A stretch of DNA of 64,000 nt from a virus, in the IMG/VR virus record IMGVR_UViG_3300025010_000010; one strand, given 5' to 3'. The notes below the pieces were generated by a model. It was given only the letters and a program-made list of their open reading frames with translations. It made no database searches and was not told where the DNA came from. Positions within the stretch are counted from its first letter, which is position 1. Every line of letters begins with the position of its first letter. This document shows, one piece after another, positions 19,648-64,000 of this stretch. The position numbers and the translations under genes are program-made.

Positions 19648-19649
19648 TG

Positions 19650-32799: not shown

Positions 32800-33183
32800 T
32801 TATACATCCGTCGAATAATCAATCATTCCGATACTTGCCCGTTTTCTACCAAGAGCCGCCAATCTGCCAGTAAAATCCAAAAGCAATGCATTCTGCCCAT
32901 AAGGAGTAGATTCAAGACCTTTTCCGAACTGGCCCATATATTTCACCCTTACCCCCTCATTACCGCCTGCCCATTCCTCTATTGTTCTCTGATCCCTGGA
33001 ACAAATAATATGAGCAACAATATATCGTTCAATTTCTTTTAATGTTGCATCACCAACTTGCGTATCCCCGGAAAATGCATTTGTTACCAACAAATTCCCA
33101 GCAGTAATAAATGGAGTGATATCAGTTATTGATGAATCAATATCAATTATTTCTCGAACTTCTGCGGAAGTAACCCGGCCCAT
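32800..33183 (-). CDS. head-tail connector (gp6-like) protein (by position and size)
   Basis: 127 aa, first gene of the connector series. Its start overlaps the sulfotransferase stop (TAATG). Confidence 0.5.
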   Translation of the reverse strand: MGRVTSAEVREIIDIDSSITDITPFITAGNLLVTNAFSGDTQVGDATLKEIERYIVAHIICSRDQRTIEEWAGGNEGVRVKYMGQFGKGLESTPYGQNALLLDFTGRLAALGRKRASIGMIDYSTDV

Positions 33184-36877: not shown

Positions 36878-37356
36878 ATGAATGGCAGCCTCTCATTCTT
36901 CAAGCAAATTACCGCTGGAACTCCCATCAAATAAGCATCAAGCATTGCCTTTTCGGTCTCAAATTGATTTCTCGGAAAGAAACCATGAACATTTTTCAAC
37001 AAACCAATAAGCCCCTCGGGATTCAATGCCCTATGGGTCGGCCCATGCGTAGGATAGTCAGAATTGCCAACCAGTATTACTGGCAAATTCTGCTCATCAA
37101 TATCAATCTTTAATTGTTCAAATGGCCTTTCAATCAGGAACGGAGTCAAGGAATAAACAATTGGCCTCAATCCTTCACAAGCCATTCCAGCAGCTACAGA
37201 AAGGAGGGACTGTTCACAAATCCCCATGTTGTAAATCCGATCAGGAAACCGTCTCTGAAATTCATCCATTTCCTGAAATACATCACCGTGAAGAACGACA
37301 ATTCGTTTATCCTTCTCCCCAAGCCTTACAATAGTTTTACCGAACGCCCTTCTCAT
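36874..37356 (-). CDS. transketolase-like C-terminal subunit, truncated (Pyr domain only)
   Basis: FGKTIV.LGEKD..IVVL.GDV, NMGICEQSLLSVAAGMA, PTHGPTH. At 160 aa it is far shorter than the roughly 300 aa I recall for typical subunits. Confidence 0.65.
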   Translation of the reverse strand: MRRAFGKTIVRLGEKDKRIVVLHGDVFQEMDEFQRRFPDRIYNMGICEQSLLSVAAGMACEGLRPIVYSLTPFLIERPFEQLKIDIDEQNLPVILVGNSDYPTHGPTHRALNPEGLIGLLKNVHGFFPRNQFETEKAMLDAYLMGVPAVICLKNERLPFI

Positions 37357-37359
37357 ATA

Positions 37360-38136
37360 TCACCAAATAAAATTCTCTCTTGTATAGCCAAAAGAAGTCA
37401 TAAATGGAAAAATAATTGATGCCATATTCTGTAAATACTTAACACTTGCTTGTTTTTGTCCCAACAAATTCATTATCCCGTCAATATCCTTATTCTCATA
37501 CATTTCTTTAAATTTATTATTCGGTGTTATATTTTGTGGAATCCATTCTTCAGCATATTTATTGACAATACTTTCATCAAAATTATCAATTTCACAATGA
37601 TTTAATACCTTCAATAATAAATCTTTTCGTTGCTCAAATGAATAATTCAAATCAATAGGTAAAAACATAATATTCGGATGTTGAACAAATTCCGTAGCCA
37701 ATGCAACAAAATTATCAATAATATAAAAATGTCTGAATTGAGGATGCCTTACTTCTCTTGTCAATATTGCGGCCAATGGATCGCGCACCGGAATAACTGT
37801 TTTAAAAAAATTACAGAACAATAAAATTGTCGAAATCGGAAGACTTCTCATTGTCTCAAGATTACTTTTCCAACCATTATAAAATTGTTCATCCATTAAA
37901 TCAAGACCACTATCCTGCTGGACTATCGGTAAATGAATATGAGCAATTGTTTTTTTATCAAGAGGGCAATCATACTTGTATTGATAATTAATATGTTCTG
38001 CATCGTATTTCTTCCTATCTTCAAGCAACAAAGTAAGTTCTTTTTCTTGTTCAAAGAAATTCAAAAGAAAATTTATCACAAACCAAGTTCCGGTATGCTG
38101 AACAGATGGAACAAATATAATATCGTTCAATTTCAA
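37360..38136 (-). CDS. second sulfotransferase-like protein (tentative)
   Basis: VPSVQHTGTWF (5'-PSB-like) and IPVRDPLAAILT (3'-PB-like RDP motif). It separates the two transketolase subunit genes. Confidence 0.4.
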   Translation of the reverse strand: MKLNDIIFVPSVQHTGTWFVINFLLNFFEQEKELTLLLEDRKKYDAEHINYQYKYDCPLDKKTIAHIHLPIVQQDSGLDLMDEQFYNGWKSNLETMRSLPISTILLFCNFFKTVIPVRDPLAAILTREVRHPQFRHFYIIDNFVALATEFVQHPNIMFLPIDLNYSFEQRKDLLLKVLNHCEIDNFDESIVNKYAEEWIPQNITPNNKFKEMYENKDIDGIMNLLGQKQASVKYLQNMASIIFPFMTSFGYTRENFIW

Positions 38137-38855
38137 TTCAATTCCTCGAAAGCTAAATCCATAAATTCTTTATTAGGCCAATTGGCATGCCATTTAGGAT
38201 CATTTTCCATATAGGAAACACCTTTGCCCTTTGTCGTTTGGGCAATTATAAATTTAGTTGTTTTACAAGGTTCTTCAATTATCTTTCTCAATTGATCAAC
38301 ATTATGTCCATCAACAATCCAAGTATCAAAACCAAGAGCATTTGTTACTTCATACAAATTAAATGATAAAATATCTTGATTCCAGCCTGAACCTTGAATT
38401 CTATTTTCATCAACAATTACAATTAAATTATCAAGATTATGTTTTTTGGCAATTAACATTGATTCCCAAGTCGTACCCTCCTGGGCCTCGCCATCACCCA
38501 TCAAAACATAAACATTCCCTGATTCACCTTTCATCTTTTTGGCAAATGCCATTCCAACAGCAGCAGGAAAACCATGGCCCAATGATCCTGTTGTATAATT
38601 TATGCCATTTGCTACATCTCTTTCAGGATGTCCAGATAATTTCGGATTCAACCCATGTTCCTGAAGAATCACATAGAGCGGCCAACAAGCATGGCCCTTG
38701 CTCAATACAAACTTGTCATCTTCTTTAAGACAAAAATCATAAAGAGCAATTAAAATTTCAACAATTGAAAAACAACCACCATAATGATACCCACCGTTTG
38801 CAGTAGAAAGTTTTAATGTATCACGGCGAAGTTGTTTTGACCTTTCATTCAACAT
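38133..38855 (-). CDS. transketolase-like N-terminal (ThDP-binding) subunit
   Basis: SKGHACWPLY, GSLGHGFPAAVGMA, ThDP motif GDGEAQEG...LIVIVDEN. Confidence 0.85.
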   Translation of the reverse strand: MLNERSKQLRRDTLKLSTANGGYHYGGCFSIVEILIALYDFCLKEDDKFVLSKGHACWPLYVILQEHGLNPKLSGHPERDVANGINYTTGSLGHGFPAAVGMAFAKKMKGESGNVYVLMGDGEAQEGTTWESMLIAKKHNLDNLIVIVDENRIQGSGWNQDILSFNLYEVTNALGFDTWIVDGHNVDQLRKIIEEPCKTTKFIIAQTTKGKGVSYMENDPKWHANWPNKEFMDLAFEELN

Positions 38856-39595
38856 ATAAACCCCACATCAGGACGGTCATTCTTGTTAGGATAATCAAGC
38901 CCTTGGACACTCCCTTGATATTCAGCCGGTACAAAATTGTCCACCAAATTTTTATGGACAAATGTACATTCCAACAGCGGAGGAACCAGATATCCATTCA
39001 TTTCCCGCATTCCAAGTGAATTATTGGGATGGATATGGACAAGATGAAAACTATCCTTCAATTTTCTCAATATATCAAGATAAGCAGAAAACAATTCCTC
39101 ATTAAACTTTTCAAAAACACCAGAATAAAAACTATTGAAATATTTAGTCAATCCTTCTCTTGGTTCACAATGAACAAGATGAAATTCAATCACAATTTGA
39201 GAAGCACTATATAATTCAAGTGGGGCAATTTTGTTTAACGCTTCCCACTCATTATATTCAACATCAATTTTAAGCATTGGGGATTTATGGAATTTGAAAA
39301 ATTTCAACGAATTCTCAATTCCTTCTTTGACAAATACAAATCTCCCATTCTGTTTAGGTAATCCATCAATTGTCGGGTCAAACAAAAATGCCTTCTGAAT
39401 ATTAAGAAATCTATTCAATAAATCAAGTTCGAACTCAACATCATCCCCGATCCCATAGGAATATAATGCATCTGATTGTTCACAGATTTCTTTCAAAACA
39501 ACATAGCCACCATCATGATCAGGACCAACCCTAATCTTGGTCAATCCTATGTCAACCAGTTGTAATTCTTTCAGAAATTTGCCAACATTATTCAT
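38849..39595 (-). CDS. putative methyltransferase (FkbM/Methyltransf_21-22-like, tentative)
   Basis: VGPDHDGGYVV...YSYGIGDD pattern. Start trimmed to an ATGA overlap. Confidence 0.35.
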   Translation of the reverse strand: MNNVGKFLKELQLVDIGLTKIRVGPDHDGGYVVLKEICEQSDALYSYGIGDDVEFELDLLNRFLNIQKAFLFDPTIDGLPKQNGRFVFVKEGIENSLKFFKFHKSPMLKIDVEYNEWEALNKIAPLELYSASQIVIEFHLVHCEPREGLTKYFNSFYSGVFEKFNEELFSAYLDILRKLKDSFHLVHIHPNNSLGMREMNGYLVPPLLECTFVHKNLVDNFVPAEYQGSVQGLDYPNKNDRPDVGFIC

Positions 39596-40626
39596 TGATT
39601 CATCTCCAGAATACAACGACAAACTTTTCCTGATTTAACCATTTCAATTGCCTTGTTTACTTCACTCAATGGAAATCTCCTGGTAATCAAGTCCTCAAGA
39701 TTTATTTTCCCATTCAAATAAAGTGCGGCATATCGAGGAATATCAACAGTTGGATTGGTCAGCCCTCCTTGACTATCAATTATTGTTTTCCCGGTATACA
39801 TATTTCTTGCATTGGAAATCTTATAATCAACCCCAATCTTAGGTTGACCAACAAGAATTAATTTCTTCGATAAATGTAATCCCATATCAATAATTTCAGG
39901 GACTCCGGTACAATCGACAAATACATCTACACCCTTTCCACTTGTAGATTTGTTTATTTCGTCAATAATAAACTCTTGATCAATACTGGAATTAATCAAA
40001 TGAGTTGCACCAAATCTCATTGCCATTTCAAGTTTGCTATCATGAATATCAATACCAAATATTTTATCAGCACAAACAAGTTTTGCCCCTTGAATCACAT
40101 TAAGGCCAACACCACCACAACCAGCAACAGCAATGGATTGTCCAATCTTTAATTGTGCTTCATTATTTATTAAACCAAATCCTGTTGTAACCGCACATCC
40201 AAGTAAGGCCGAAATCTCAAAAGGAAGAGCAGAAGGCACCTTTGTTAAACGATTCTCTGAAACAACGGCCATTTCATTAAATGTTGTTACCCAACCGCCA
40301 CCAACAGTTTCTGCCCCAAGTTTATATTTTGGCGGTATTGCATTAATCCCTTCTCCTTTTCGCCAATGCAAACAAACATGATCCCCATTTTTTACAGTTG
40401 TTACTCCAGGACCAACTTTCTCTACAATACCACCGCCTTCATGCCCGAGAAGATGGGGAAGATATTTATCTGGCCCTTTTGCCCCAGATATTTCCCCAAT
40501 CTGAGCGCCACAAATACCAGAAGCAAATACCCTTACAAGTACCTGTCCAACATCAAGAATATTCGGAAGAGATATATTCGCAACAACCAAATTCTGATTC
40601 AGTTCTGTAAGTATTGCAGCTTTCAA
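39592..40626 (-). CDS. zinc-dependent medium-chain alcohol/sugar dehydrogenase
   Basis: GHEGGGIVEKVGPGV and the GCGGVGL NAD fold. Likely TTG start at 40626 (TTGA overlap with the upstream stop), giving MKAAIL... Confidence 0.8.
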   Translation of the reverse strand: MKAAILTELNQNLVVANISLPNILDVGQVLVRVFASGICGAQIGEISGAKGPDKYLPHLLGHEGGGIVEKVGPGVTTVKNGDHVCLHWRKGEGINAIPPKYKLGAETVGGGWVTTFNEMAVVSENRLTKVPSALPFEISALLGCAVTTGFGLINNEAQLKIGQSIAVAGCGGVGLNVIQGAKLVCADKIFGIDIHDSKLEMAMRFGATHLINSSIDQEFIIDEINKSTSGKGVDVFVDCTGVPEIIDMGLHLSKKLILVGQPKIGVDYKISNARNMYTGKTIIDSQGGLTNPTVDIPRYAALYLNGKINLEDLITRRFPLSEVNKAIEMVKSGKVCRCILEMNQ

Positions 40627-41252
40627 ATTAATTTCTCCAGCTTCATAAATGGAAAATCCTTTATTGCACTGTCCGGTGTTGCGTTGATGATTTCCAACCC
40701 AACTTCTGCCGCATCCCTTGCAATATACGGCCAACAGCGCATATGATTTTTATACGGGTCAAATGTCTTCGCTCTGGTCGGATAAAAATCATGAAAATTA
40801 TGTCGATCATTATCAGGATGCATATCAAACCCAAGTAAAACAATCCGCCGAGCACCAAACCAATAGGCAATATTAATAGCACTGGCACCAGAGTTGCCAT
40901 TCCAAGAAACAAATCCAACTTTCTTTGTTTCAATGCCATAATTTTTCGATCTTCCAACACGACGAATCCCCCTCCATCCTTTTCCAAGTTCTGGAACCCG
41001 CCCACAGCTAGTCACCTTAATTCCGGGCCACTGGTCGATACTTGGGGCAAGCTCCCTGAACTGACAATCCCCAAAGTAAGTTACGTCCACCCAAGGGTAA
41101 ACTCTGAATGCTTGATTTACTCCAATTACTCGTTTCAATCTTAAGCAATTCAGTTCCATACCCTTCAAAGATGGCCCGCCACCGATAATAAATATGGTAC
41201 TCTCCGACCATAGCTTTGGTATTACCCAGGGAGTTCTTTGACAGGCCGGCAT
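40623..41252 (-). CDS. DUF115/Maf-like putative (CMP-)sugar transferase (tentative)
   Basis: IFIIGGGPSLKG....LKRVIGVNQA pattern recalls the MAF_flag10/MptE-like fold. Confidence 0.4.
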   Translation of the reverse strand: MPACQRTPWVIPKLWSESTIFIIGGGPSLKGMELNCLRLKRVIGVNQAFRVYPWVDVTYFGDCQFRELAPSIDQWPGIKVTSCGRVPELGKGWRGIRRVGRSKNYGIETKKVGFVSWNGNSGASAINIAYWFGARRIVLLGFDMHPDNDRHNFHDFYPTRAKTFDPYKNHMRCWPYIARDAAEVGLEIINATPDSAIKDFPFMKLEKLI

Positions 41253-45925: not shown

Positions 45926-47390
45926 TTTCCCCAGAAGTCGCAGGAACAGCTAATTTGCCACCTTCCTGACCTATAAGATCGTCATCCCCTTCCCCGTCAT
46001 CCTGAATCAAGGTTTCATTCTGCTTTTGCCTTGCATCCATAATCCTTTTTACTTTCTCGGAATCCAAATCAAGAATTTCTTCAAGGAATGAATCAAACGG
46101 AATCAATAATTCAGTATCCGGGGCAGTTGCATAATTCTTAATTGAATCTGACCTGACCTTGCCAACATCGGCCTTATCTTTATCGGAAGGAGCAGACAAA
46201 TCAGCCCATTCAATTTCATATCCATCAGTTCCAGGAGCGGTTATTACTTGATTTTCAATAAGTTTATTGATAACCGGCTCAAGGATAAACGGATTAATAA
46301 AATAGATTCTCCGATTTTCCAATTTATCATTCCAATGCCCCTCATCCTGGGAAGAAGCCAATTCACCCCGTTCTGAGCCTTCCAGAATCCTTTTTGGGAT
46401 ACCAGTTGCAATTGAAATCATCAATAATTGTACATTAACATGATTAGAAGGATCAGCAATATCAGAGGACAATTTCTCAACTTCAATCCCCTGAAGTTTC
46501 ATATATCGCTTGAAATCATGAACATATAAATCAATTTCATCTTCCAATTCGGAAGCAGTAGCGGTTAAATCCGCATCAGCCTGAGCCTGAAAGGCAAATC
46601 CAGGGAAAGCCCCTTGCCAGAACATTTCTGCAGAACCGCCAACAATCAATTCGAGATTTAACAGGCGATTGTAAATCCTCTCCAATATCGGAAGGGCAAA
46701 TATGTTTGATTCAAGCAATCCTTCTGTTACATGTAAAACTCTTGAATGATGAACCAATAAATCATTTGTAATTTTTGCATTACTTCCCGGCTCAGTATAT
46801 GAAAGCTGGTATACTTCCGGTTTCCCATATCGCTCTGAACCAGGGTTTCTGTCCCAACTTTTTATTGTCGCATTCCCTTCCGAATAAGGCTGGAGATAAA
46901 GCAATTCGACCTTGCCAGTTACAGGTTTAGCCATATCCTCTTTTACTTTTACATCTGAGAAACCAAACAGCAAAACACCATATTGCCCAATTCTAATCAA
47001 TTTCTCCAAACGAATTATTGTTGAGTAAATATGATGCTTCTTTTCGAGTTCACTCCATTCCTTTTCAAAGATAGTTTCATTATCAACTGACTCAATTACC
47101 TCAGGCATGGACTGCCAAGCACCATCAACAGGAGCATCTATAATCCTTGCCGCTATATCTCCCCGGCGATACTTCCCGTAATAATCATCGAATGTTATTT
47201 CATTTAATTGAGGATAACCAAGGGCCTCGTACAAATCCCTTTTACCATGAAAGGACTGACCCAATTTATGAGCTAAAGAAGCCCTGGAAGTAAGCAACGA
47301 AGAGGACAAAACACGATGAATAGAAGATCGAAGCATTTTTCTTGCTTCTTCTTTTACATTTACAACTTGTTTTGGCTTTGTTCTATTCAT
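45900..47390 (-). CDS. portal protein
   Basis: 496 aa with an acidic C-terminus, positioned between the terminase (plus kdsB) and the MuF-like gene. Confidence 0.7.
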   Translation of the reverse strand: MNRTKPKQVVNVKEEARKMLRSSIHRVLSSSLLTSRASLAHKLGQSFHGKRDLYEALGYPQLNEITFDDYYGKYRRGDIAARIIDAPVDGAWQSMPEVIESVDNETIFEKEWSELEKKHHIYSTIIRLEKLIRIGQYGVLLFGFSDVKVKEDMAKPVTGKVELLYLQPYSEGNATIKSWDRNPGSERYGKPEVYQLSYTEPGSNAKITNDLLVHHSRVLHVTEGLLESNIFALPILERIYNRLLNLELIVGGSAEMFWQGAFPGFAFQAQADADLTATASELEDEIDLYVHDFKRYMKLQGIEVEKLSSDIADPSNHVNVQLLMISIATGIPKRILEGSERGELASSQDEGHWNDKLENRRIYFINPFILEPVINKLIENQVITAPGTDGYEIEWADLSAPSDKDKADVGKVRSDSIKNYATAPDTELLIPFDSFLEEILDLDSEKVKRIMDARQKQNETLIQDDGEGDDDLIGQEGGKLAVPATSGENEGEGTGE

Positions 47391-48118
47391 CTGTTCAACC
47401 TTTTTAAGTCAGCGGGACAATTTATATCGGGGCCACAATCATTATTAACAACTACACATTGAACATTTATCCCATTCTCCAACCATCTTAATTGTTCCAA
47501 CCTTTCATATTGCTCAAGTTTAGTTGGCTTTAATTTAGATACCTTTTGCAATATCTCGTTTCTATATGCATAAATCCCAATATGTTTATGCCAAATCGGA
47601 AATAGATCAACCGGATAAGGAGACGAATCAGGAATTGGTCTACGAGAAAAATACAATGCCTTATTATTTAAATCAAAAACAGCCTTAACCGTATTGGAGT
47701 CAAGGAAATCTCTCTGCTGTCCTACTCCTTGAGCGATTACCGGAGATGCTATATCAATATCCTTATTATCGACTAAACATTGAATAAGTTGTTCACAAAC
47801 TTTTGGATCAACAAAAGGAAGATCACCTTGAACATTTAATATAATCCTATCAGAACGCATTCCATTTGCTATTTCCGCAACTCTATCTGTTCCTGATTGA
47901 TGATTCTCGGAAGTAAATATTGCAATTCCGCCAGCATCCGTAACTGTTTTAATAATTAAATCACTATCAGTTGCAACAACAACGCCATCAATTCCTTGAA
48001 TTTCCCTAGCCCGCTTATAAACATGAAGAACCATTGGCCAGCCAGCAATAAGGGCAAGTGGTTTACCAGGGAACCTTGTCGACGCAAATCGAGCTGGAAT
48101 TACCGCTATTGCATTCAT
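47387..48118 (-). CDS. kdsB: 3-deoxy-manno-octulosonate cytidylyltransferase (CMP-Kdo synthetase)
   Basis: Near full-length resemblance to KdsB: AVIPARFASTRFPGKPL, HQSGTDRVAE, NVQGDLPF, ALYFSR, HIGIYAYR, LEQLRWLENG. Confidence 0.9.
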   Translation of the reverse strand: MNAIAVIPARFASTRFPGKPLALIAGWPMVLHVYKRAREIQGIDGVVVATDSDLIIKTVTDAGGIAIFTSENHQSGTDRVAEIANGMRSDRIILNVQGDLPFVDPKVCEQLIQCLVDNKDIDIASPVIAQGVGQQRDFLDSNTVKAVFDLNNKALYFSRRPIPDSSPYPVDLFPIWHKHIGIYAYRNEILQKVSKLKPTKLEQYERLEQLRWLENGINVQCVVVNNDCGPDINCPADLKRLNR

Positions 48119-50808: not shown

Positions 50809-50994
50809 ATGACCAAACAATCTAATATCCTGGTAGTGCAGTGCTCATACTGCACCACTTTTATCCGGGTAATCGATTCCAAAGGAACCCAGGGTGGTCT
50901 TTCTCACGGGATTTGTGAAAAATGCTTTGAAAAATTAATGGAGGATTTTGAGCAATGCAAAGAACTCATTTCAAAGGAAAGGGACAAAAAATGA
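50809..50994 (+). CDS. small zinc-binding protein
   Basis: CSYC...HGICEKC. Confidence 0.5.
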   Translation: MTKQSNILVVQCSYCTTFIRVIDSKGTQGGLSHGICEKCFEKLMEDFEQCKELISKERDKK

Positions 50995-51473
50995 ATATCT
51001 TGGTCACAAAGCATATCAATCAGGCTCATTCTTTAGCTTGGTCCTTTTGCCGAACAACTGGGATTGATTTTGAGGAATTGAAATCTGAAGCCCTTTTGGC
51101 CCTTTGTATTGCTGTTGATAATTATAATCCTTCCAGGGGAAAATTATCAACCTGCGTCCACCATTATGTTACCAGGGCATTATGTGATTTCGTTAAAGAT
51201 CAAAAGGAAAATGTTTGTGATGAATATGAAGATATTGCTAAGAATATCAACACTGAAAATACAGCTGTTTTTCGGCATCTATTAAGCAATTTAGGGGAAG
51301 AGGCCAAAATGGTTGCGAATATTATCTTTTCTGGTCCTGCGGAAATTATGGGGATTGCTGCCGATACCTCCTATTATTCAATCAAGGGAAAAATCAAGGA
51401 ATTTTTAGTTGGTAAGGGAATTAAGAAATGCAGGATTGATGAGGCTTTTGAGGAATTAAGAAATTTATTTTAA
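50991..51473 (+). CDS. sigma-70-family (ECF-sized) sigma factor-like protein
   Basis: The region-2-like segment is DFEELKSEALLALCIAVDNYNPSRGKLSTCVHHYVTRAL. There is also a C-terminal HTH-like region. ATGA overlap at the start. Confidence 0.55.
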   Translation: MNILVTKHINQAHSLAWSFCRTTGIDFEELKSEALLALCIAVDNYNPSRGKLSTCVHHYVTRALCDFVKDQKENVCDEYEDIAKNINTENTAVFRHLLSNLGEEAKMVANIIFSGPAEIMGIAADTSYYSIKGKIKEFLVGKGIKKCRIDEAFEELRNLF

Positions 51474-58748: not shown

Positions 58749-58814
58749 AATAGTGACAATAGGTTGTCGGCAAGATGCAGACAATATTTAAACCAAAATA
58801 TTTTGGAGGAAACC

Positions 58815-59576
58815 ATGAGTGAGAAGGAAACGGTAACGAGGGGTGAATTGGTCAAGGCAGCCAAGGAGCTTAATGATGTGCTGTTTGAGGAAGATGACAA
58901 GCAGCGCATTGATATCAAGGCAAATGCCAAGGTGCTTGATCAGAAAATCCGGGAAGCCAGCACCCTGCTGGCCGATGATGATGAGATGTCCGAGGAAACG
59001 CTTGCGACCCTAAAGACTATTGGTGCTGACTTGCCGGAATCAATGGGTGGTACGGCAGGCGGCGAAGAGGGTAACGAAGAAACCGGAATGACTGATGCCG
59101 AAGAGCGAGAACAGGGCGAGCCGGTTGAGACCGAAAAGATTGATACCACTGCTGCTGTAAAATCTGCCAAGGTTGCCAAGAAAGTTGCCGAACTTCAGGC
59201 TATTGCCAAGGAAATGGGTGTTCGGATTGCCCCGCCCTTCCTGAAGGACTTGAAGAAATGCCGTGACTATGTGGTTGAGAAGCTCCAGAAGCTGGCCACT
59301 GAGGGTCGGCCTGTAAAAATGGCGAATGCTACCAAGACACCTAAGAAATCTTCAGGTGAAAAGCGTTATACCAGGGCGCAGTCCTTAGCGGATGCCATCA
59401 AGGCCGGGAATACTGCCAAGGCAGAAATTATTTCTGAATCCAACCGCCTTTTTATCGAGAAGGGTGGCAAGGATAATGAAAAAGAAGCTGCCTGGATTTG
59501 TAGCCAGGGCCTTGCGGTTCTTGCCGCATACGGCGTTGTAACTGTCGAAGGCAATACCGTTACCATTGTGGAGTAA
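58815..59576 (+). CDS. hypothetical acidic/basic bipartite protein encoded by a GC-rich patch
   Basis: GGAGGAAACC RBS. Composition is clearly GC-richer than the flanks (hand count 35/60 at 59041-59100). TAATG coupling to the next gene. Confidence 0.6.
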   Translation: MSEKETVTRGELVKAAKELNDVLFEEDDKQRIDIKANAKVLDQKIREASTLLADDDEMSEETLATLKTIGADLPESMGGTAGGEEGNEETGMTDAEEREQGEPVETEKIDTTAAVKSAKVAKKVAELQAIAKEMGVRIAPPFLKDLKKCRDYVVEKLQKLATEGRPVKMANATKTPKKSSGEKRYTRAQSLADAIKAGNTAKAEIISESNRLFIEKGGKDNEKEAAWICSQGLAVLAAYGVVTVEGNTVTIVE

Positions 59577-60631
59577 TGGGTCACGGATTAAATGTGAGAG
59601 GGGACAGTGTATATTGCCCCCTCTCTTTTTCACTTGACAGTTATTGGAACTGTTTAACAAACTGTCATCATTGCTATCTGCGCAGATTAAACAGAACCTG
59701 GGGGCAAGACCTTCGCCCAACCTCCCCAGAAGAATTAGATATTAAATTGAGAAATGGGGTATTAAATAAAAATCCTAAATCCCCAATTGCGCATTGCCTT
59801 GCCAATAAAAAAACAATTCGTTGGGGTAATAAAACCGATCCTTTCCAAAAAATTGAACTTCAAAAACAAGTAAGCAAAAAGATTTTTGAAATTTTGATTA
59901 AACATAATTGGTCTTTTGTAATTCAAACAATGCACACAGATGTTTTGTTGAATTACGAAAGCCTAATTTTTAAGGCAGCTCAAAAGAAACTCATAACAAT
60001 AATGCCTGTTGTTTCCCCTGGCCTTGAAAGGGATTGGGAAATTTTGGAGCGGAAAAGAACAAATTCCCCATTGGAAAGGCTTGAGCATTTATCAAAATGG
60101 ATTAAACAAGGAATTCCGGGAGGAATAAATGGAGAACCATTTATTCCTGGTTTTCATAAAATATCTGAATTTGAAGATGCCGTCAAGTTGTTAAAAAATT
60201 ATAATATCAAAAGTTACAATACGTACAACCTTCATTTTAATGATCATGTGGCGAAAAATTTTCATAGTATTGGGTTAGATATTGAAAAAATATGGTTTAT
60301 GAATCAGGATCGACAATGGAAAAGAATTTTGAGGAAATTAATGGAAATTTCTCAAAAACACAATATCATCCTTGGTTGTCCTGATTTTGTTAATACCGGG
60401 CCTAAATGGATTGAAAAGGCGAATACTTGTTGCGGAATAAATGTTCCTACCCCAACAACATTTAATACTCATTTTTGGAAAAAGAAAATCCAAGAAGGGG
60501 TTAAACAAGAAGAATTTTTTGATCAGTCTTTTGATGGCTCTGGAGATTATGAAGAAGGAAAGAAAATAGTTTCGGAAAAATCATCAAAATTTTATACATT
60601 ATTTGATTCCGGGGTATATAATGATATTTAA
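59576..60631 (+). CDS. radical SAM protein (SplB/COG1533 'DNA photolyase-like' type)
   Basis: CLTNCHHCYL CxxxCxxC cluster close to the N-terminus; ~350 aa. Confidence 0.7.
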   Translation: MGHGLNVRGDSVYCPLSFSLDSYWNCLTNCHHCYLRRLNRTWGQDLRPTSPEELDIKLRNGVLNKNPKSPIAHCLANKKTIRWGNKTDPFQKIELQKQVSKKIFEILIKHNWSFVIQTMHTDVLLNYESLIFKAAQKKLITIMPVVSPGLERDWEILERKRTNSPLERLEHLSKWIKQGIPGGINGEPFIPGFHKISEFEDAVKLLKNYNIKSYNTYNLHFNDHVAKNFHSIGLDIEKIWFMNQDRQWKRILRKLMEISQKHNIILGCPDFVNTGPKWIEKANTCCGINVPTPTTFNTHFWKKKIQEGVKQEEFFDQSFDGSGDYEEGKKIVSEKSSKFYTLFDSGVYNDI

Positions 60632-61466
60632 TCATACCCCGATAGAATTATATAAAATTGATAATCATATTGTTTATGTTAAAAGAGAAGATAAAATTGT
60701 TTCCGATAATGGCCCAACCTTTTCAAAAATTAGAGGATTAATCCCGGTATTAAGCCGATTAAAACAAGCAGGTTTTATCCATATAGGATATACAGAAACG
60801 AATATTTCTATGGCTGGCTGGGGAGTAGCCTGGGCCTGTAAAAAAATCGGTTTAAAATGTATAATTTTTGATCCTCAATACAAAACAAAACAGCCATTAC
60901 TTGATTTTCATAGAAATCAATGGCGAGAATTTGAAGCAGAAATAATTCCTATTCAGGCCGGTAGAGCCAAGGTCAATTGGTATATTTCAAAAAAGAAACT
61001 CAAAAACAAATATAAAAATTCATACCTATTGCCGCTTGGATTGAAATTTCCTGAAACAATTGATGCAACATATGAAGAAGCCATTTGGACAAGAGCAAAT
61101 TCAAAAATAAAATTTAATACAATTATTTTGTGTATAGGAAGTGGAACTATTGGGGCAGGAGTCATTAAGGCATTTAATGATGCTAAAATTTACGGAATCA
61201 TAACCCGTTCCTGTAATGTTCAAAATAAGATACATCATATCGAGGATATTGGCGGATTTACTCAAAACGGTTTTTTTAAAAGGGATTTTGAATTAATTGA
61301 TGAAGGCTGGGAATATACAGAAAGAAGTAATATTGAACAATTGTTTCCTTGTCATCCTTGGTATGATTTGAAAGCGTGGGAATGGCTTTTAAACAACATA
61401 AATAAACTTAAAAAACCAATATTATTTTGGAATATTGGAGCCTTGCCAAAAGAATTTAAAGGATAA
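60621..61466 (+). CDS. PLP-dependent fold-type II enzyme (ACC deaminase / D-cysteine desulfhydrase / Trp-synthase-beta-like)
   Basis: Candidate PLP lysine in GPTFSKIRGL; Gly-rich phosphate loop CIGSGTIGAG. Confidence 0.5.
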   Translation: MIFNHTPIELYKIDNHIVYVKREDKIVSDNGPTFSKIRGLIPVLSRLKQAGFIHIGYTETNISMAGWGVAWACKKIGLKCIIFDPQYKTKQPLLDFHRNQWREFEAEIIPIQAGRAKVNWYISKKKLKNKYKNSYLLPLGLKFPETIDATYEEAIWTRANSKIKFNTIILCIGSGTIGAGVIKAFNDAKIYGIITRSCNVQNKIHHIEDIGGFTQNGFFKRDFELIDEGWEYTERSNIEQLFPCHPWYDLKAWEWLLNNINKLKKPILFWNIGALPKEFKG

Positions 61467-61470
61467 AATA

Positions 61471-62871
61471 ATGATTGATTATTATGAATTGAGAAAAATT
61501 GTTAGCAAAATCATTCCTCGTCAAACAAGATTAAAACTTGATAAGAATATAGTGGATGCTGTTAAGGAAAAGGGGAGGAAAACAGGATACCATCAATTCA
61601 ATATTAAGAATAAGGAATGGGTAAAACAAGAAAGATTGTTAAATACTGAAACAGTAAACAGTTTTCTGGAAATATCTATCAGGGCTGCTGCTTGCCCTAT
61701 GCCGCTGAATTTGGATGTTTGGGACGGACTTATATGTCCCTTCAAATGTATTTATTGTTTTGCTAATGCTTTCCGGGCCAGCCTTTATACCGCCTTTTTT
61801 GATAATTCCAAAACAATGGGATACCGCCATTGTAATCCCGATTTTTATAAAACAGAACTTGATAAATTAATGGGGAGTAGGGGGCAAAATCCTAAAGAGC
61901 TTTCTGATATTAAAAAAGCCCTCGCAATGGAAATTCCTATAAGGTTTGGAATTCGTTTTGAAGATTTCCTTTATGCGGAAGGAAAGAAGGGGATAAGTTT
62001 GGAGTTGCTTCAATATCTTGCCAATGTTGATTATCCTGTAATGATTAATACCAAATCTGATCTTGTAGCAAGGGAAGAATATTTGCGGGCATTGGCGGAT
62101 AACAAAGGGAAGGCTGCCGTCCATATTACAATGATTTCCTCAAATGAAGGAATATTGAAAAAACTTGAACCAGGTGCCCCGACATTCAAAAAAAGAATAG
62201 AAGCCGGGAAAAAATTGGTGGATGCTGGAGTAAGAGTTGTTGCAAGAATTGAGCCATTTTTATTGTTTGTAAATGATAATAAGGACGATGTTGAAGATTA
62301 TATTTCTCAACTTAAAGATGCTGGGATTAAAAACATAACATTTGATACATATAGTTATACCGCCCATAATCCCGGTATTCGATCCGCTTTTGTTTCTGAG
62401 GGATATGATTTTGAAAGATTATTTCTTCTTGGTTGTGACTCTCAGGCAATAGGATCATTATTGCTTGGTTCTTTTATGGATATTTTTCAGAAACAAGGAT
62501 TTAGTTGCTCGACATTTGACATGGGTAATACTCCTCAAAATAATCAAACGGTTTGTTGTGAGGTTGAAGATTGGTTTGGAGATGGATATAATTATGGGTG
62601 TACAGTTTGGGCTTCAAGATACATTCAACAACAAAATGGAAAGCCGGTAAATTGGTTTGAGTTTGAAAAATTTGTTGAAGGAAAGGGCGGGTTTCTTACT
62701 GAAAAAATCAAAGCAGATGTAAAACAACTTTGGAATTGCGACGGGAATAATGCTTATAGTCATTCTTGGGCAAAAGGAATGGAAGCTGTTGGAATAGATG
62801 AAAACGGATTAATATGGAAATTCGTTAAACAAAGTGACTTTAGACTTGATATTTTAAATTCTATCATTTAA
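61471..62871 (+). CDS. radical SAM protein (SplB/COG1533-like), second copy
   Basis: CPFKCIYCFAN cluster; 466 aa. Confidence 0.7.
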   Translation: MIDYYELRKIVSKIIPRQTRLKLDKNIVDAVKEKGRKTGYHQFNIKNKEWVKQERLLNTETVNSFLEISIRAAACPMPLNLDVWDGLICPFKCIYCFANAFRASLYTAFFDNSKTMGYRHCNPDFYKTELDKLMGSRGQNPKELSDIKKALAMEIPIRFGIRFEDFLYAEGKKGISLELLQYLANVDYPVMINTKSDLVAREEYLRALADNKGKAAVHITMISSNEGILKKLEPGAPTFKKRIEAGKKLVDAGVRVVARIEPFLLFVNDNKDDVEDYISQLKDAGIKNITFDTYSYTAHNPGIRSAFVSEGYDFERLFLLGCDSQAIGSLLLGSFMDIFQKQGFSCSTFDMGNTPQNNQTVCCEVEDWFGDGYNYGCTVWASRYIQQQNGKPVNWFEFEKFVEGKGGFLTEKIKADVKQLWNCDGNNAYSHSWAKGMEAVGIDENGLIWKFVKQSDFRLDILNSII

Positions 62872-62884: not shown

Positions 62885-63670
62885 ATGGGAAAGAAAATTT
62901 CAAAATTGGTTGAAGAAATATTTTCACTTGCAGTTTCTATGGATCAATCCGGGAAACTTCGTAATTCAATTTATGCAATCAAAAACAAAATTTATATTCT
63001 TAACAGTGATTCCACAGTTCTTTTGAGATTCTTTTTAAGAAAATTTGAAACACCATTTGATCATCCTGTTGCCTTCCGGGCAAATGATTATGATAGCAGG
63101 GAATTTGAAGAAAGAGATGGGAATATTGTTTTCATTACTAAAGAAGGCGGGTATTTGCGAGAAAAAAGTTGCCGGATTCCTGATTCAACTCCTGAAGAAA
63201 TTGAAAAACTTTATCTTTCATACGACACAGAAGAAGCTGATAACGAAGTGATTATTCCCAAAACTATTTTGAGCCTTTTGGAAGATGGATTGAGCCATAT
63301 TGAATTTCGTGGAGAAAATGGGAAATTGTATATGGTTCAGCGTGATATTTATAGTGGTTCCATTATTGAGATTTCAAAGGATAAGAGTGCAAGCGGATTT
63401 GGGATTGATGTTGATAAAAAAATAAGTGATTTTGGTCCTATTGGGATCAGAACAAATGATTTTACTTCTTTGTTTATTTTTCAAGATCAAGTCAATTTTA
63501 ATTTTTTCAATGACGATAAATCTGATTATATTTATATCAAAGGGTTGAGCAATACTGTAAATATGTCAGGATTTATTTCTTGTTGCCGATACGATGAACT
63601 TTCAAACATTACGAGAAGTCAGGAGGTAGAAGATGGGCGGGAAGAGCAGAAAGTCAGGCGGAGTAAGTAA
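62885..63670 (+). CDS. hypothetical protein (sliding-clamp candidate, speculative)
   Basis: 261 aa. No other clamp candidate is visible although a clamp loader is present. There is no diagnostic motif. Confidence 0.3.
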   Translation: MGKKISKLVEEIFSLAVSMDQSGKLRNSIYAIKNKIYILNSDSTVLLRFFLRKFETPFDHPVAFRANDYDSREFEERDGNIVFITKEGGYLREKSCRIPDSTPEEIEKLYLSYDTEEADNEVIIPKTILSLLEDGLSHIEFRGENGKLYMVQRDIYSGSIIEISKDKSASGFGIDVDKKISDFGPIGIRTNDFTSLFIFQDQVNFNFFNDDKSDYIYIKGLSNTVNMSGFISCCRYDELSNITRSQEVEDGREEQKVRRSK

Positions 63671-63806
63671 GAAATTGATTCAGACTCTTTTGAATAAAAA
63701 AGACGGCAAAAAGAGTAATTGTGGAAACAAAAAGAAAATTCCAAAAACAAGTGGTTTCTTCGGAAACATTTCTGGAAATTCTGGAGATGGGGAAGATAAC
63801 ACCTAA
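63633..63806 (+). CDS. small basic Gly/Lys-rich protein (57 aa, below ORF-track cutoff)
   Basis: AGGAGG lies 6 nt upstream of the ATG. It overlaps the previous gene by 38 nt. Confidence 0.35.
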   Translation: MGGKSRKSGGVSKKLIQTLLNKKDGKKSNCGNKKKIPKTSGFFGNISGNSGDGEDNT

Positions 63807-64000
63807 TTTTTGGTGTTCAAAAGAATATCTTGATTTACTTGATATTGATATTGTTATCGACAATAATATTATTGAATGTTATGATGACGATATTTTAATC
63901 TTTCCTCCAATAAATATTAATACTTTTGAAATTGACTTGTCAAATAATCCAAGACGTATTTGGTCGGATTTTGATAAAAAAGATATTCAAGGATATAAAA
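63787..64000 (+). CDS. hypothetical protein, 3' end beyond the window
   Basis: ATG ORF open to the window edge (MGKITPNFWCSKEYLDLL...). Confidence 0.3.
   Translation, partial: MGKITPNFWCSKEYLDLLDIDIVIDNNIIECYDDDILIFPPININTFEIDLSNNPRRIWSDFDKKDIQGYK

What the first reader, a model, noticed from the sequence alone, without database searches (positions are those of the whole stretch)
59576..62871. Radical SAM - PLP enzyme - radical SAM trio at the end of the replication arm (candidate nucleic-acid or nucleotide modification module)
Three translationally coupled genes (an 11-nt overlap at 60621-60631, then a 4-nt gap between the 61466 stop and the 61471 start):
- a SplB/COG1533-type radical SAM protein (CLTNCHHC);
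- a fold-type II PLP enzyme (SKIRGL lysine, GSGTIGAG loop);
- a second, larger SplB-type radical SAM protein (CPFKCIYC).

They follow the primase, loader and helicase genes. They are directly coupled (TAATG at 59576) to a GC-rich gene of unknown function.

Pairs of radical SAM and PLP enzymes are the tailoring steps in known phage thymidine hypermodification pathways (the ViI and M6 type). The kinase, pyrophosphorylase and hydroxymethylase partners of those pathways are not in this window.

This may therefore be a different chemistry: a DNA base or nucleotide-pool modification, or a repair activity.
Basis: partly seen in the sequence, partly recalled or inferred. Interest (0 to 1): 0.75.

Follow-up and report, generated by a model that had tools for sequence, protein, structure and literature searches.

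The report
Radical-SAM DNA hypermodification module in phage
Three coupled genes in an uncultured groundwater phage most likely decorate its DNA bases using finishing enzymes already known from other phages, but with two radical enzymes replacing every known starting step, which points to an undescribed way of starting such a modification.

Summary
The genes are rSAM_A (59576-60631), a PLP enzyme (60621-61466) and rSAM_B (61471-62871), with the stated motifs and overlaps.

- **PLP enzyme.** It is a full-length homologue of Pseudomonas phage M6 gp52, the decarboxylase that finishes 5-aminoethyl-dU in DNA. Identity is 37%, and the Schiff-base lysine K36 is conserved.
- **Radical SAM proteins.** The two are paralogues. 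They are remote, profile-level homologues of M6 gp53, and the closest solved fold is spore photoproduct lyase.
- **Conservation.** In 52 non-redundant, fully covered related contigs, rSAM_B is always present with an upstream partner: rSAM_A in 48, or a third paralogue plus DUF362 in 4. Beside the pair lies a variable slot. It holds the gp52-like PLP enzyme (27 loci), a homologue of the PaMx11 gp47 flavin lyase plus an aldo-keto reductase, other enzymes, or nothing.
- **Missing partners.** The roughly 66.4-66.9 kb genome has no dUMP hydroxymethylase, 5-hmdU kinase or aGPT-Pplase. Neither do about 95 related loci.
- **Position.** The trio is not at the end of the replication arm. A PCNA-like clamp and a possible aminoacyl-transferase-like gene follow, then DnaN and Pol III alpha.

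My best reading (confidence 0.58) is a post-replicative DNA hypermodification started by radical chemistry on a canonical base. No chemistry has been demonstrated.

The parts
58764..59576 (+). Acidic protein (270 aa, pI 5.0) encoded by a GC-rich gene and translationally coupled to rSAM_A. Its function is unknown. It is a conserved neighbour, and its membership of the module is unproven.
   Evidence: No Pfam, PHROG or NCBIfam family matches. Homologues clustered by BLAST sit between DnaB and the first rSAM gene in 44 related loci. The TAATG junction was read directly.
59576..60631 (+). rSAM_A: a radical SAM protein (351 aa, CX3CX2C at C26/C30/C33) with further conserved Cys (C14, C268, C285, C286). 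It is the paralogue closer to the M6 gp53 isomerase.
   Evidence: It hits phrog_13321 (E 2e-11) and NCBIfam PA0069-type rSAM (E 2e-12). It is 24% identical to rSAM_B (E 3e-12). hhalign gives 99.2% against rSAM_B and 96.7-96.9% against the gp53 family (E about 2e-10, about 255 columns). The large protein collection holds 509 90%-identity clusters, the best 120 listed all on contigs of at most about 112 kb. It is present in 48 of 52 fully covered loci.
60621..61466 (+). Fold-type II PLP enzyme (281 aa), a homologue of the M6 gp52 DNA-borne amino-acid decarboxylase. It is an optional tailoring step of the module.
   Evidence: It hits phrog_7093 (E 1.4e-52, full length) and Pfam PALP (E 6e-11). 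tblastn gives 37.5% identity and 98% coverage to M6 gp52 (E 1e-40). K36 in FSK(I)RG and the S-G-T loop are conserved in at least 95% of 41 aligned sequences. It occurs in 27 of 52 loci and never without rSAM_A.
61471..62871 (+). rSAM_B: a radical SAM protein (466 aa, CX3CX2C at C89/C93/C96) with invariant extra Cys (C75, C121, C362, C363). It is the invariant and most conserved gene of the module.
   Evidence: Pfam Radical_SAM scores 31.6 bits against a cut-off of 29.5. The AF2 model has pLDDT 81, and its top PDB fold hits are spore photoproduct lyase (E 1e-4, TM 0.36-0.50). Median identity across loci is 58%, against 28-42% for replisome proteins. There are 566 90%-identity clusters. Inteins are inserted at the cluster motif in several homologues.
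62885..63670 (+). PCNA-like two-domain clamp-fold protein (261 aa). It follows rSAM_B in every related locus with downstream sequence that was examined.
   Evidence: The AF2 model has pLDDT 88 and pTM 0.83. PCNA and 9-1-1 chains are the top PDB hits (E 3e-9, TM 0.5-0.6, full length). The median gap to rSAM_B is 32 nt. All 61 loci found with this protein as bait, and with enough upstream sequence, carry rSAM_B upstream. The pair persists in relatives at 33-39% identity, including a phage with a Pol A polymerase.
63721..64000 (+). 5' part of a 267-aa gene that runs off the window end. It may encode a DUF2156/LPG_synthase_C-like (aminoacyl-tRNA-dependent, GNAT-type) transferase. It is conserved after the clamp-like gene.
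   Evidence: The full gene was seen on the source contig (L014 10837-11640). It is present in 71 of the related loci examined. Of 27 family members, 11 hit Pfam PF09924 at E<=0.1 (best 3.5e-5). A profile search gives PDB 2hqy as best hit at E 0.022. This evidence is weak.

Best explanation
The trio is the centre of a DNA base hypermodification module built into the replisome operon of an uncultured siphovirus-like groundwater phage of roughly 66.4-66.9 kb.

**Shown**
- The PLP enzyme belongs to the M6 gp52 family. gp52 decarboxylates an amino acid already attached to thymine in DNA.
- The two radical SAM proteins are paralogues in the same remote superfamily as M6 gp53 and spore photoproduct lyase, both of which act on thymine in DNA.
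- rSAM_B is invariant across the phage lineage and always has an upstream paralogue, usually rSAM_A.
- The genes beside the pair vary like tailoring enzymes.
- The known starting enzymes (dUMP hydroxymethylase, 5-hmdU DNA kinase, aGPT-Pplase) are absent.

**Inferred mechanism**
1. After replication, rSAM_B cleaves SAM to a 5'-deoxyadenosyl radical. The neighbouring PCNA-like ring may hold rSAM_B on DNA.
2. That radical abstracts a hydrogen from a canonical base, most plausibly the C5-methyl of thymine.
3. The base radical captures an amino-acid-type group and gives a glycinyl-thymine-like adduct. It may first lose one electron to an auxiliary Fe-S cluster, which would give the same exocyclic-methylene electrophile that aGPT-Pplase2 makes from 5-phosphomethyl-dU.
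4. rSAM_A, the paralogue nearer gp53, rearranges or completes the adduct so that a primary amine is exposed.
5. The PLP enzyme removes CO2 and leaves an aminoalkyl base of the 5-NedU type.

The likely purpose is to shield phage DNA from host nucleases.
For: **PLP enzyme**
- Its only phage relatives are gp52 homologues (66 records, 98% coverage, E 1e-40). It matches phrog_7093 at E 1.4e-52. K36 aligns exactly with gp52 K36. gp52, gp53 and gp47 were characterised biochemically on DNA (PMC8989533, PMC11472151).

**Alternative tailoring genes**
- In sister loci the PLP slot holds a FAD enzyme that is 32% identical over 93% of its length to PaMx11 gp47 (E 5e-34). Its only PDB sequence matches are the 'flavin-dependent lyase' entries 8z2o and 8z79 (E 1e-36).
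- Other slot occupants are Amidoligase_2, GNAT-like, CmoA-like and aldo-keto reductase genes. Lee et al. reported flavin-dependent oxidoreductases and amidoligases around 5-HMUDK clusters and characterised an acetyltransferase.

**Radical SAM proteins**
- hhalign gives rSAM_A vs gp53 family 96.9% and rSAM_B vs gp53 family about 91%. All clades share an upstream Cys, the CX3CX2C motif, a PG motif in the (E/N)P..PG region, and a C-terminal Cys motif.
- SPL is the top solved fold for rSAM_B.

**Co-conservation**
- In 52 non-redundant fully covered loci, PLP never occurs without rSAM_A. This mirrors gp52's dependence on gp53.
- The rSAM pair is more conserved than primase, helicase, clamp and clamp loader.
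- Inteins target the rSAM_B cluster motif.

**Location**
- The module sits inside the replisome operon, next to a PCNA-like clamp.

**Missing partners**
- There are no hits to M6 gp51, gp54, gp55 or gp58 in the window or in about 95 loci, even at E 1e-2. No such Pfam domains appear anywhere in the genome.
Against: - No chemical evidence exists. The modified base, the target base and the DNA substrate are all inferred.
- Homology of the rSAMs to gp53 is visible only at profile level (BLAST E 0.001 at best).
- The structural match to SPL is modest (TM up to 0.5).
- The simple three-step scheme does not explain why loci with the gp47-like flavin enzyme keep rSAM_A. gp47 acts on the N-linked isomer.
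- It also does not explain what the MTase-fold, CmoA-like and aldo-keto reductase genes do.
- A divergent relative (L111) has rSAM_B and the clamp-like gene but no rSAM_A or PLP within 10 kb. rSAM_B may therefore have a stand-alone role tied to replication.
- CmoA-like genes are tRNA-modification enzymes elsewhere.
- The amino-acid donor is unknown.
Confidence: 0.58

Rival explanations
1. The module acts on a substrate other than DNA. Candidates are tRNA or other RNA, free nucleotides, a small-molecule metabolite or a protein such as the clamp. Under this reading, the gp52-like and gp47-like enzymes have been recruited to a chemically similar group that is not borne on DNA.
For: Some sister loci carry a CmoA-like carboxy-SAM synthase (TIGR00740 E 3e-40; phrog_4752 'tRNA methyltransferase' E 1e-67) plus a second methyltransferase-fold gene. 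The 267-aa neighbour weakly resembles aminoacyl-tRNA-dependent transferases. No direct evidence for a DNA substrate exists.
Against: The closest characterised relatives of the tailoring enzymes act on dsDNA, and a dsDNA-bound structure of gp47 has been reported (PMC8989533, PMC11472151). The closest solved fold to rSAM_B is the DNA enzyme SPL. The genes lie between the helicase and the clamps and are tightly linked to a PCNA-like protein. The window encodes no tRNA.
Confidence: 0.2
2. This is the ordinary 5-hmdU-based pathway of the M6 type. Under this reading, the hydroxymethylase, kinase and amino-acid transferase are replaced by non-homologous proteins that I could not recognise. Examples are the 267-aa transferase-like protein, the acidic protein, or an rSAM that hydroxylates thymine anaerobically. 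Alternatively, the host supplies them.
For: PLP-rSAM adjacency mirrors M6 gp52-gp53. Several conserved neighbours have no assigned function. Lee et al. note clusters in which 5-hmU may be made in situ on DNA by dioxygenases.
Against: tblastn with the M6 proteins found no thymidylate-synthase-like, P-loop 5-HMUDK or aGPT-Pplase homologue in the genome or in about 95 loci. Pfam found no such domain, and no other nucleotide-metabolism domain (dUTPase, dCMP deaminase and the like), in this genome. The replicative polymerase is a Pol III alpha type. Thymidylate-synthase and P-loop kinase folds are usually easy to detect.
Confidence: 0.1
3. The radical SAM proteins are DNA repair lyases of the spore-photoproduct-lyase type that travel with the replisome, and the PLP enzyme is an unrelated metabolic gene.
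For: Source databases annotate homologues as 'DNA repair photolyase'. SPL is the best solved-structure match. There are weak hits to PF20903 and TIGR04070. The clamp linkage would also suit a repair enzyme.
Against: - Scores lie far below the SPL family cut-offs (17 bits vs 400; 20.8 vs 27).
- Two or three paralogues are maintained.
- The PLP enzyme belongs specifically to the gp52 clade and co-varies with rSAM_A.
- The variable slot holds amine- and carboxyl-tailoring enzymes, including a gp47 homologue.
- The source contig comes from a groundwater metagenome, where I would expect little UV damage.
- The rSAMs are the most conserved genes of the replication arm.
Confidence: 0.07

Closest known systems
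5-NedU pathway of Pseudomonas phage M6 (gp51 aGPT-Pplase2, gp52 PLP decarboxylase, gp53 radical SAM isomerase, gp54 5-hmdU DNA kinase, gp58 dUMP hydroxymethylase; Lee et al. 2021, PMC8989533)
   Same: The PLP enzyme is a full-length gp52 homologue with the same lysine. It is followed by a radical SAM gene of about 470 aa, as in M6 (466 vs 480 aa). Both rSAMs are remote homologues of gp53. The cluster lies among replication genes.
   Different: There is no aGPT-Pplase, no 5-HMUDK and no thymidylate-synthase-like hydroxymethylase in the genome. A second radical SAM paralogue occupies the position of gp51. The rSAMs are only profile-level relatives of gp53. A PCNA-like clamp and a DUF2156-like gene are attached.
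5-AcNmdU pathway of Pseudomonas phage PaMx11 (gp46, gp47 flavin-dependent lyase/NGTO, gp48 acetyltransferase; PMC8989533, PMC11472151)
   Same: Sister phages of this window carry a gp47 homologue (32% identity, E 5e-34) in exactly the slot that the PLP gene occupies here. The same PLP-or-FAD alternation is seen between M6 and PaMx11.
   Different: In the new lineage the flavin enzyme is paired with an aldo-keto reductase rather than an acetyltransferase. It sits between two radical SAM genes. The window itself has the PLP version, not the FAD version.
Spore photoproduct lyase (SplB; PDB 4fhc, 4fhf)
   Same: It is the best solved-structure match to rSAM_B. It is a radical SAM enzyme that works on the thymine methyl/C5-C6 system within dsDNA.
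   Different: Sequence scores lie far below the family thresholds. The new proteins have extra N- and C-terminal regions with additional invariant cysteines. They occur as paralogue pairs with tailoring enzymes, in phages rather than spore formers.
PA0069 / Rv2578c-type radical SAM proteins (COG1533, 'DNA repair photolyase'; function unknown)
   Same: These are the best NCBIfam models for both rSAMs (E 1e-12 to 1e-15 over the core).
   Different: Scores (47-56 bits) lie far below the family cut-offs (360-430), so the proteins are not members. Those bacterial families are themselves uncharacterised.

Membership tests
M6 gp52-type PLP-dependent decarboxylase of DNA-borne amino acids (phrog_7093) | Full-length sequence homology to gp52 | tested here: met
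   Identity is 37.5% over 98% of the protein (E 1e-40). phrog_7093 matches at E 1.4e-52 over 1-274 of 279 profile positions.
M6 gp52-type PLP-dependent decarboxylase of DNA-borne amino acids (phrog_7093) | Schiff-base lysine (gp52 K36) and the PLP phosphate loop | tested here: met
   K36 in FSKIRG aligns with gp52 K36. The S-G-T loop is conserved in at least 95% of 41 aligned sequences.
M6 gp52-type PLP-dependent decarboxylase of DNA-borne amino acids (phrog_7093) | Decarboxylation of C-alpha-glycinylthymidine in DNA | not testable with these tools
   This needs an enzyme assay on DNA prepared with M6 gp54, gp51 and gp53.
M6 gp53-type radical SAM glycinyl-thymine isomerase | CX3CX2C radical SAM cluster motif | tested here: met
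   The motifs are CLTNCHHC (rSAM_A) and CPFKCIYC (rSAM_B). They are invariant in 61 and 65 homologues respectively.
M6 gp53-type radical SAM glycinyl-thymine isomerase | Sequence homology to gp53 beyond the generic radical SAM core | tested here: inconclusive
   BLAST is marginal (E 0.001 for rSAM_A, 0.15 for rSAM_B). hhalign gives 96.9% for rSAM_A and about 91% for rSAM_B over 220-255 columns. The clades share an upstream Cys and a C-terminal Cys motif.
M6 gp53-type radical SAM glycinyl-thymine isomerase | Supply of N-alpha-glycinylthymidine by an adjacent aGPT-Pplase2 and 5-HMUDK | tested here: not met
   No homologue of gp51 or gp54 exists in the genome or in related loci.
Thymidine hypermodification pathway via 5-hmdU (Lee et al. 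2018, 2021) | dUMP hydroxymethylase (thymidylate-synthase homologue) | tested here: not met
   tblastn with M6 gp58 gives no hit below E 0.06 in the window and none at E<=1e-2 in about 95 loci. No thymidylate-synthase Pfam domain appears among the genome's genes.
Thymidine hypermodification pathway via 5-hmdU (Lee et al. 2018, 2021) | 5-hmdU DNA kinase and aGPT-Pplase | tested here: not met
   The same searches with M6 gp54, gp51 and gp55 found nothing.
Thymidine hypermodification pathway via 5-hmdU (Lee et al. 2018, 2021) | Combinatorial tailoring enzymes (PLP, rSAM, FAD, acyltransferase, amidoligase) | tested here: met
   The variable slot holds gp52-like PLP, gp47-like FAD, Amidoligase_2 (E 4.5e-7) and GNAT-like genes.
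Spore photoproduct lyase (TIGR04070 / PF20903) | Score above the curated family threshold | tested here: not met
   rSAM_B scores 17.2 bits against a cut-off of 400 (TIGR04070) and 20.8 against 27 (PF20903). rSAM_A has no hit.
Spore photoproduct lyase (TIGR04070 / PF20903) | Structural similarity to solved SPL | tested here: inconclusive
   SPL entries are the top PDB hits for the rSAM_B model, but the match is modest (E 1e-4, TM 0.36-0.50).
PCNA-like sliding clamp (for 62885-63670) | Two-domain clamp fold | tested here: met
   The AF2 model has pLDDT 88. PCNA and 9-1-1 chains match at E 3e-9, TM 0.5-0.6, over the full length. Ring assembly and clamp-loader use were not testable.
LPG_synthase_C / DUF2156 aminoacyl-tRNA-dependent transferase (for the 267-aa gene starting at 63721) | Match to PF09924 | tested here: inconclusive
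   Of 27 family members, 11 match at E<=0.1 (best 3.5e-5). The window phage's own copy does not match. The profile-to-PDB best hit is 2hqy at E 0.022.

The most novel reading that the evidence does not exclude
A widespread lineage of uncultured phages installs amino-acid-derived hypermodified bases by direct radical C-H functionalisation of a canonical base in double-stranded DNA. The most likely target is the thymine methyl group. Under this reading:
- A dedicated radical SAM enzyme (rSAM_B), working with a PCNA-like clamp, replaces the whole hydroxymethylase, kinase and pyrophosphorylase front end.
- A second, gp53-like radical SAM enzyme then acts.
- Interchangeable PLP or flavin enzymes finish the base.

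If so, this would be the first de novo radical SAM route to a DNA modification that needs no 5-hmdU.
Probability: 0.3. Interest if true: 0.9.

Novelty: new variant of a known kind. Interest (0 to 1): 0.78.

Why it matters
All characterised thymidine hypermodification pathways start from 5-hmdU made at the nucleotide level, followed by a DNA kinase and an aGPT-Pplase. The published metagenome survey was anchored on that kinase, so it would not have retrieved kinase-less clusters like this one.

This module uses recognisable finishing enzymes of that chemistry (gp52-like PLP; gp47-like FAD in sister phages) but none of the starting enzymes. In their place are two strongly conserved radical SAM proteins.

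If the inference holds, three things follow:
- It reveals an oxygen-independent, C-H-activating way to start DNA hypermodification.
- It extends the set of enzymes known to act on DNA polymers.
- It shows that a lineage represented by more than 500 90%-identity protein clusters on phage-sized contigs, from many environmental samples, probably carries non-canonical DNA. That affects restriction and CRISPR evasion, sequencing bias in viromes and the design of enzymatic DNA-labelling tools.

The hypothesis can be tested directly by heterologous expression and nucleoside mass spectrometry.

Tried and rejected
- **DNA-level search.** blastn of the region against 50,697 phage records found no match.
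- **tblastn against cultured phages.** rSAM_B gave only one weak partial hit. rSAM_A and the 267-aa protein gave none.
- **PDB sequence searches.** Searches with rSAM_A, rSAM_B and the PLP enzyme returned nothing. The rSAM_A family profile returned only noise.
- **M6 gp51 in the rSAM_A position.** I tested whether rSAM_A corresponds to gp51 (aGPT-Pplase2). There is no similarity.
- **The 261-aa gene as the missing kinase or transferase.** It has a PCNA-like fold, so I rejected this.
- **The 261-aa and 267-aa proteins as paralogous clamp subunits.** hhalign gives 0.7% probability, so I rejected this.
- **The third radical SAM gene (2547-3407).** I tested whether it belongs to the same family. 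It is unrelated.
- **Host assignment.** The genome collection gave only five hits, on contigs of at most 56 kb (four under 28 kb) binned into MAGs of five unrelated taxa. This is uninformative.
- **Divergent rSAM_B relatives.** Three of four look-ups landed on contigs too short to show context.
- **Promoter and terminator scans.** These were uninformative.
- **Literature.** Searches for a kinase-independent radical SAM DNA modification, or for COG1533 functions in phages, found nothing relevant.
- **GNAT-like slot genes and the 267-aa family.** hhalign did not link them convincingly (3.4%).

Full report
**Observation**

- rSAM_A is 59576-60631 (351 aa), with CLTNCHHC at residues 26-33.
- The PLP enzyme is 281 aa from the ATG at 60621 to 61466. 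It carries FSKIRGL (K36) and the GSGTIGAG loop.
- rSAM_B is 466 aa from the ATG at 61471 to 62871, with CPFKCIYC at residues 89-96.

I read the junctions directly. The upstream gene's TAA shares an A with the rSAM_A ATG (TAATG). rSAM_A and the PLP gene overlap by 11 nt. Four nt separate the PLP stop from the rSAM_B ATG.

Family searches back the assignments.
- The PLP enzyme hits Pfam PALP (E 6e-11, above its cut-off) and phrog_7093 (E 1.4e-52, full length).
- rSAM_B hits Pfam Radical_SAM above its cut-off.
- Both rSAMs hit phrog_13321 and the NCBIfam PA0069/Rv2578c radical SAM models, though far below the cut-offs of those families.
- Primase, a DnaC-like loader and a DnaB-like helicase lie upstream.

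**Where the window sits**

The window proteins occur on near-identical groundwater-metagenome contigs of 66,438 and 66,880 bp. The window covers all but about 2.8 kb (my arithmetic from locus coordinates).

The replication arm does not end at the trio. After rSAM_B come:
- a 261-aa gene (62885-63670);
- a 267-aa gene that starts at 63721 and runs off the window;
- a 134-aa gene;
- a DnaN-like clamp (TIGR00663, E 4e-12);
- a 903-aa Pol III alpha, whose C-terminal part is window 27-1928.

Next come a clamp loader, a UvsX-like recombinase and nucleases. The phage has a siphovirus-like structural arm on the minus strand.

**The PLP enzyme**

A tblastn search of 50,697 phage records found 66 matches. 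All are homologues of Pseudomonas phage M6 gp52, in Pseudomonas, Bordetella, Stenotrophomonas, Sphaerotilus, Rhizobium and Pseudanabaena phages, at 98% coverage. M6 itself matches at 37.5% identity and E 1e-40. The ViI-type PLP enzyme was not among the hits.

In M6 the gene order is gp51 (aGPT-Pplase2), gp52 (PLP), gp53 (radical SAM), gp54 (5-hmdU DNA kinase), with the dUMP hydroxymethylase nearby. Lee et al. showed the steps biochemically (PMC8989533):
- gp51 attaches glycine to 5-phosphomethyl-dU in DNA;
- gp53 isomerises N-alpha- to C-alpha-glycinylthymidine;
- gp52 decarboxylates the product to 5-NedU.

In a 41-sequence alignment, the window protein's K36 lines up with gp52 K36. FSK.RG and the S-G-T loop are conserved in at least 95% of the sequences. 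The protein has no match in PDB sequence space, as expected for this divergent clade.

**The radical SAM proteins**

rSAM_A and rSAM_B are paralogues (24% identity, E 3e-12). BLAST to gp53 is marginal. Profile-profile comparison supports homology:
- rSAM_A vs rSAM_B, 99.2%;
- rSAM_A vs the gp53 family, 96.7-96.9% (E about 2e-10 over about 255 columns);
- rSAM_B vs the gp53 family, about 91%.

All clades share a Cys 12-14 residues upstream of CX3CX2C, a PG motif in the (E/N)P..PG region, and a C-terminal Cys motif (CC in the new proteins, QCHG in gp53). rSAM_B, the third paralogue and gp53 also share an L(E/S)PGA motif that rSAM_A lacks. The extra invariant cysteines are C75, C121, C362 and C363 in rSAM_B, with equivalents in rSAM_A. 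They could bind a second Fe-S cluster, as reported for gp53. I could not test this.

An AF2 model of rSAM_B (pLDDT 81) finds spore photoproduct lyase as the best solved fold, but only modestly (E 1e-4, TM 0.36-0.50). Among viral models, the best hit is an unnamed 469-aa protein. Its length equals that of the gp53 homologue of Rhizobium phage RHph_I72. I could not confirm that they are the same protein.

**Comparative genomics**

The large protein collection holds 566 90%-identity clusters of rSAM_B and 509 of rSAM_A. The best 120 listed for each lie on contigs of at most about 112 kb. At 50% clustering, 41 representatives match rSAM_B at E<=1e-30.

I fetched about 95 related viral loci and mapped the gene order by tblastn. 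The order is constant: DnaB, acidic protein, first rSAM, variable slot, rSAM_B, 261-aa gene, 267-aa gene, DnaN-like.

The 52 non-redundant loci in which the slot is fully covered divide as follows:

| First rSAM | Other genes | Loci |
|---|---|---|
| rSAM_A | gp52-like PLP | 22 |
| rSAM_A | none recognised | 10 |
| rSAM_A | aldo-keto reductase + methyltransferase-fold family | 5 |
| rSAM_A | PLP + methyltransferase-fold family | 4 |
| third paralogue | DUF362 protein | 4 |
| rSAM_A | FAD enzyme + aldo-keto reductase | 3 |
| rSAM_A | methyltransferase-fold family | 3 |
| rSAM_A | CmoA-like + second methyltransferase + PLP | 1 |

PLP never occurs without rSAM_A. It lies either between the two rSAMs or directly upstream of rSAM_A. 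Single loci add an Amidoligase_2 gene (E 4.5e-7) or GNAT-like genes.

The FAD enzyme is 32% identical over 93% of its length to PaMx11 gp47 (E 5e-34). Its only PDB sequence matches are the 'flavin-dependent lyase' entries 8z2o and 8z79 (E 1e-36). gp47 is the N-alpha-glycinylthymidine oxidase that has been crystallised on dsDNA (PMC11472151).

Two alternative occupants of one slot are therefore each homologous to an enzyme proven to work on glycine-thymine conjugates in DNA.

Median identity to the window proteins across loci is as follows:

| Protein | Median identity (%) |
|---|---|
| rSAM_B | 58 |
| rSAM_A | 52 |
| PLP | 46 |
| clamp loader | 42 |
| primase | 34 |
| DnaN-like | 33 |
| DnaB | 28 |

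The rSAMs are the most constrained genes of the arm. Inteins interrupt rSAM_B at the first cluster cysteine in several homologues. In my experience inteins favour essential active sites.

**Missing partners**

tblastn with M6 gp51, gp54, gp55 and gp58 finds nothing in the window. It also finds nothing at E<=1e-2 in about 95 loci. Precomputed and fresh Pfam annotation of essentially every gene of the genome shows no thymidylate-synthase-like, P-loop kinase, aGPT-Pplase or dioxygenase domain, and no other nucleotide-metabolism domain. Lee et al. anchored their metagenome survey on 5-HMUDK, so clusters of this type would not have been retrieved.

**Conserved downstream genes**

The 261-aa protein models confidently (pLDDT 88) as a two-domain PCNA-like clamp (E 3e-9, TM 0.5-0.6).
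- Using it as bait, all 61 loci with enough upstream sequence carry rSAM_B upstream.
- The median gap between the two genes is 32 nt.
- The pair survives in relatives at only 33-39% identity. One is a 46-kb contig with a Pol A-type polymerase and no rSAM_A or PLP within 10 kb.
- This suggests a functional partnership, possibly tethering of the enzyme to DNA, but shared lineage cannot be excluded.

The 267-aa protein gives weak hits to PF09924 (LPG_synthase_C/DUF2156, an aminoacyl-tRNA-dependent transferase family). Of 27 members, 11 match, with a best E of 3.5e-5. A profile search against PDB gives 2hqy as best hit at E 0.022. I treat this only as a lead for the amino-acid donor or an acylating step.

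**Mechanism**

Shown:
- the family memberships above;
- co-conservation of the pair;
- absence of the canonical front end.

Inferred:
- rSAM_B starts the modification on a canonical base in replicated DNA by H-atom abstraction. The thymine methyl is the most plausible site, because SPL, gp53, gp52 and gp47 all handle that position.
- The base radical captures an amino-acid-type group. Alternatively, one-electron oxidation first gives the exocyclic methylene electrophile that Lee et al. propose for aGPT-Pplase2, and that electrophile captures the group.
- rSAM_A, which is nearer gp53 and is required wherever PLP is present, exposes a primary amine.
- The PLP enzyme decarboxylates.
- In sister phages the flavin enzyme plus the aldo-keto reductase would instead convert the amine to a carbonyl and then to an alcohol.

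This scheme leaves several things unexplained: why flavin loci keep rSAM_A, what the methyltransferase-fold and CmoA-like genes do, and what the donor is.

**Rivals**

- A non-DNA substrate (0.20) is kept alive by the CmoA-like and aminoacyl-transferase-like genes and by the lack of chemical data.
- A conventional 5-hmdU pathway with unrecognised replacements (0.10) is disfavoured by the clean negative searches.
- SPL-type repair plus an unrelated PLP gene (0.07) is disfavoured by sub-threshold SPL scores, the maintained paralogue pair, the gp52-clade PLP that co-varies with rSAM_A, and the tailoring-enzyme slot.

**Novelty**

Literature searches found radical SAM chemistry in DNA modification only for M6 gp53. 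I classify the module as a new variant of a known kind. It is a thymidine-hypermodification-type toolkit with a different, radical SAM-based front end. It occurs in a large uncultured phage lineage with no relative among the 50,697 phage genome records searched.

Noticed in passing
window 33183-40734 (minus strand): A metabolic-looking gene block sits inside the structural arm, between the major capsid and head-tail connector genes. It holds a Zn-alcohol dehydrogenase, split transketolase N and Pyr halves, a short-chain dehydrogenase, a 791-aa methyltransferase (with a faint GT9 hit) and a sulfotransferase-like protein. It may serve sugar or virion-glycan modification (precomputed Pfam).
   Followed up: no
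window 47387-48118 (minus strand): A CMP-sugar-type cytidylyltransferase (CTP_transf_3, E 3e-50) lies between the portal and large terminase genes. It may belong with the sugar-metabolism block above.
   Followed up: no
window 14000-22000: G+C content jumps to 48-53%, against about 33-40% in most of the rest of the genome. The minus-strand genes there include a GDSL-lipase-like protein and a 702-aa protein with no family match. The gene just upstream of rSAM_A (58764-59576) is also locally GC-rich.
   Followed up: no
window 2547-3407 (plus strand): A third radical SAM gene (286 aa, CPNRCWFC; phrog_9298) lies between Pol III alpha and the clamp loader. It is unrelated to rSAM_A, rSAM_B or gp53 by BLAST and hhalign. 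It was not found in the more distant related loci.
   Followed up: partly
P0033; L080 8662-9900; L093-L095 upstream of rSAM_B: Inteins are inserted immediately before the first cysteine of the CX3CX2C motif of rSAM_B homologues. L095 appears to carry a second intein just after the motif.
   Followed up: partly
window 1-1928 and 63721-64000: Both window ends cut genes of the same replication arm. Pol III alpha (903 aa on the source contig) is truncated at the window start, and the 267-aa gene is truncated at the window end. About 2.8 kb of the roughly 66.4-66.9 kb genome is missing between them.
   Followed up: yes
L111 14946-17474 compared with window 27-1928: The replicative polymerase differs among phages that share rSAM_B, the PCNA-like gene, DnaN and the clamp loader. 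It is Pol III alpha here and in four loci, but a Pol A fused to a UDG domain in L111. Most other loci gave no hit to the Pol III alpha query.
   Followed up: no
window 50955-51473 (plus strand): A phage-encoded sigma-70 region-2 protein (E 4e-8) sits at the head of the plus-strand early/replication arm, at the strand switch near 50 kb.
   Followed up: no
L045 11401-12579; L057 6931-7536; L024 4663-5427, L057 4368-5075 and L076 7768-8619; L010 12471-13118: Related loci carry extra nucleic-acid enzymes in or beside the module. By reading the sequences I judged one RtcB-like ligase, one dCMP-deaminase-like protein and several N4/N6 DNA methyltransferases. One of the methyltransferases was confirmed by Pfam (N6_N4_Mtase, E 3e-17).
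   Followed up: no
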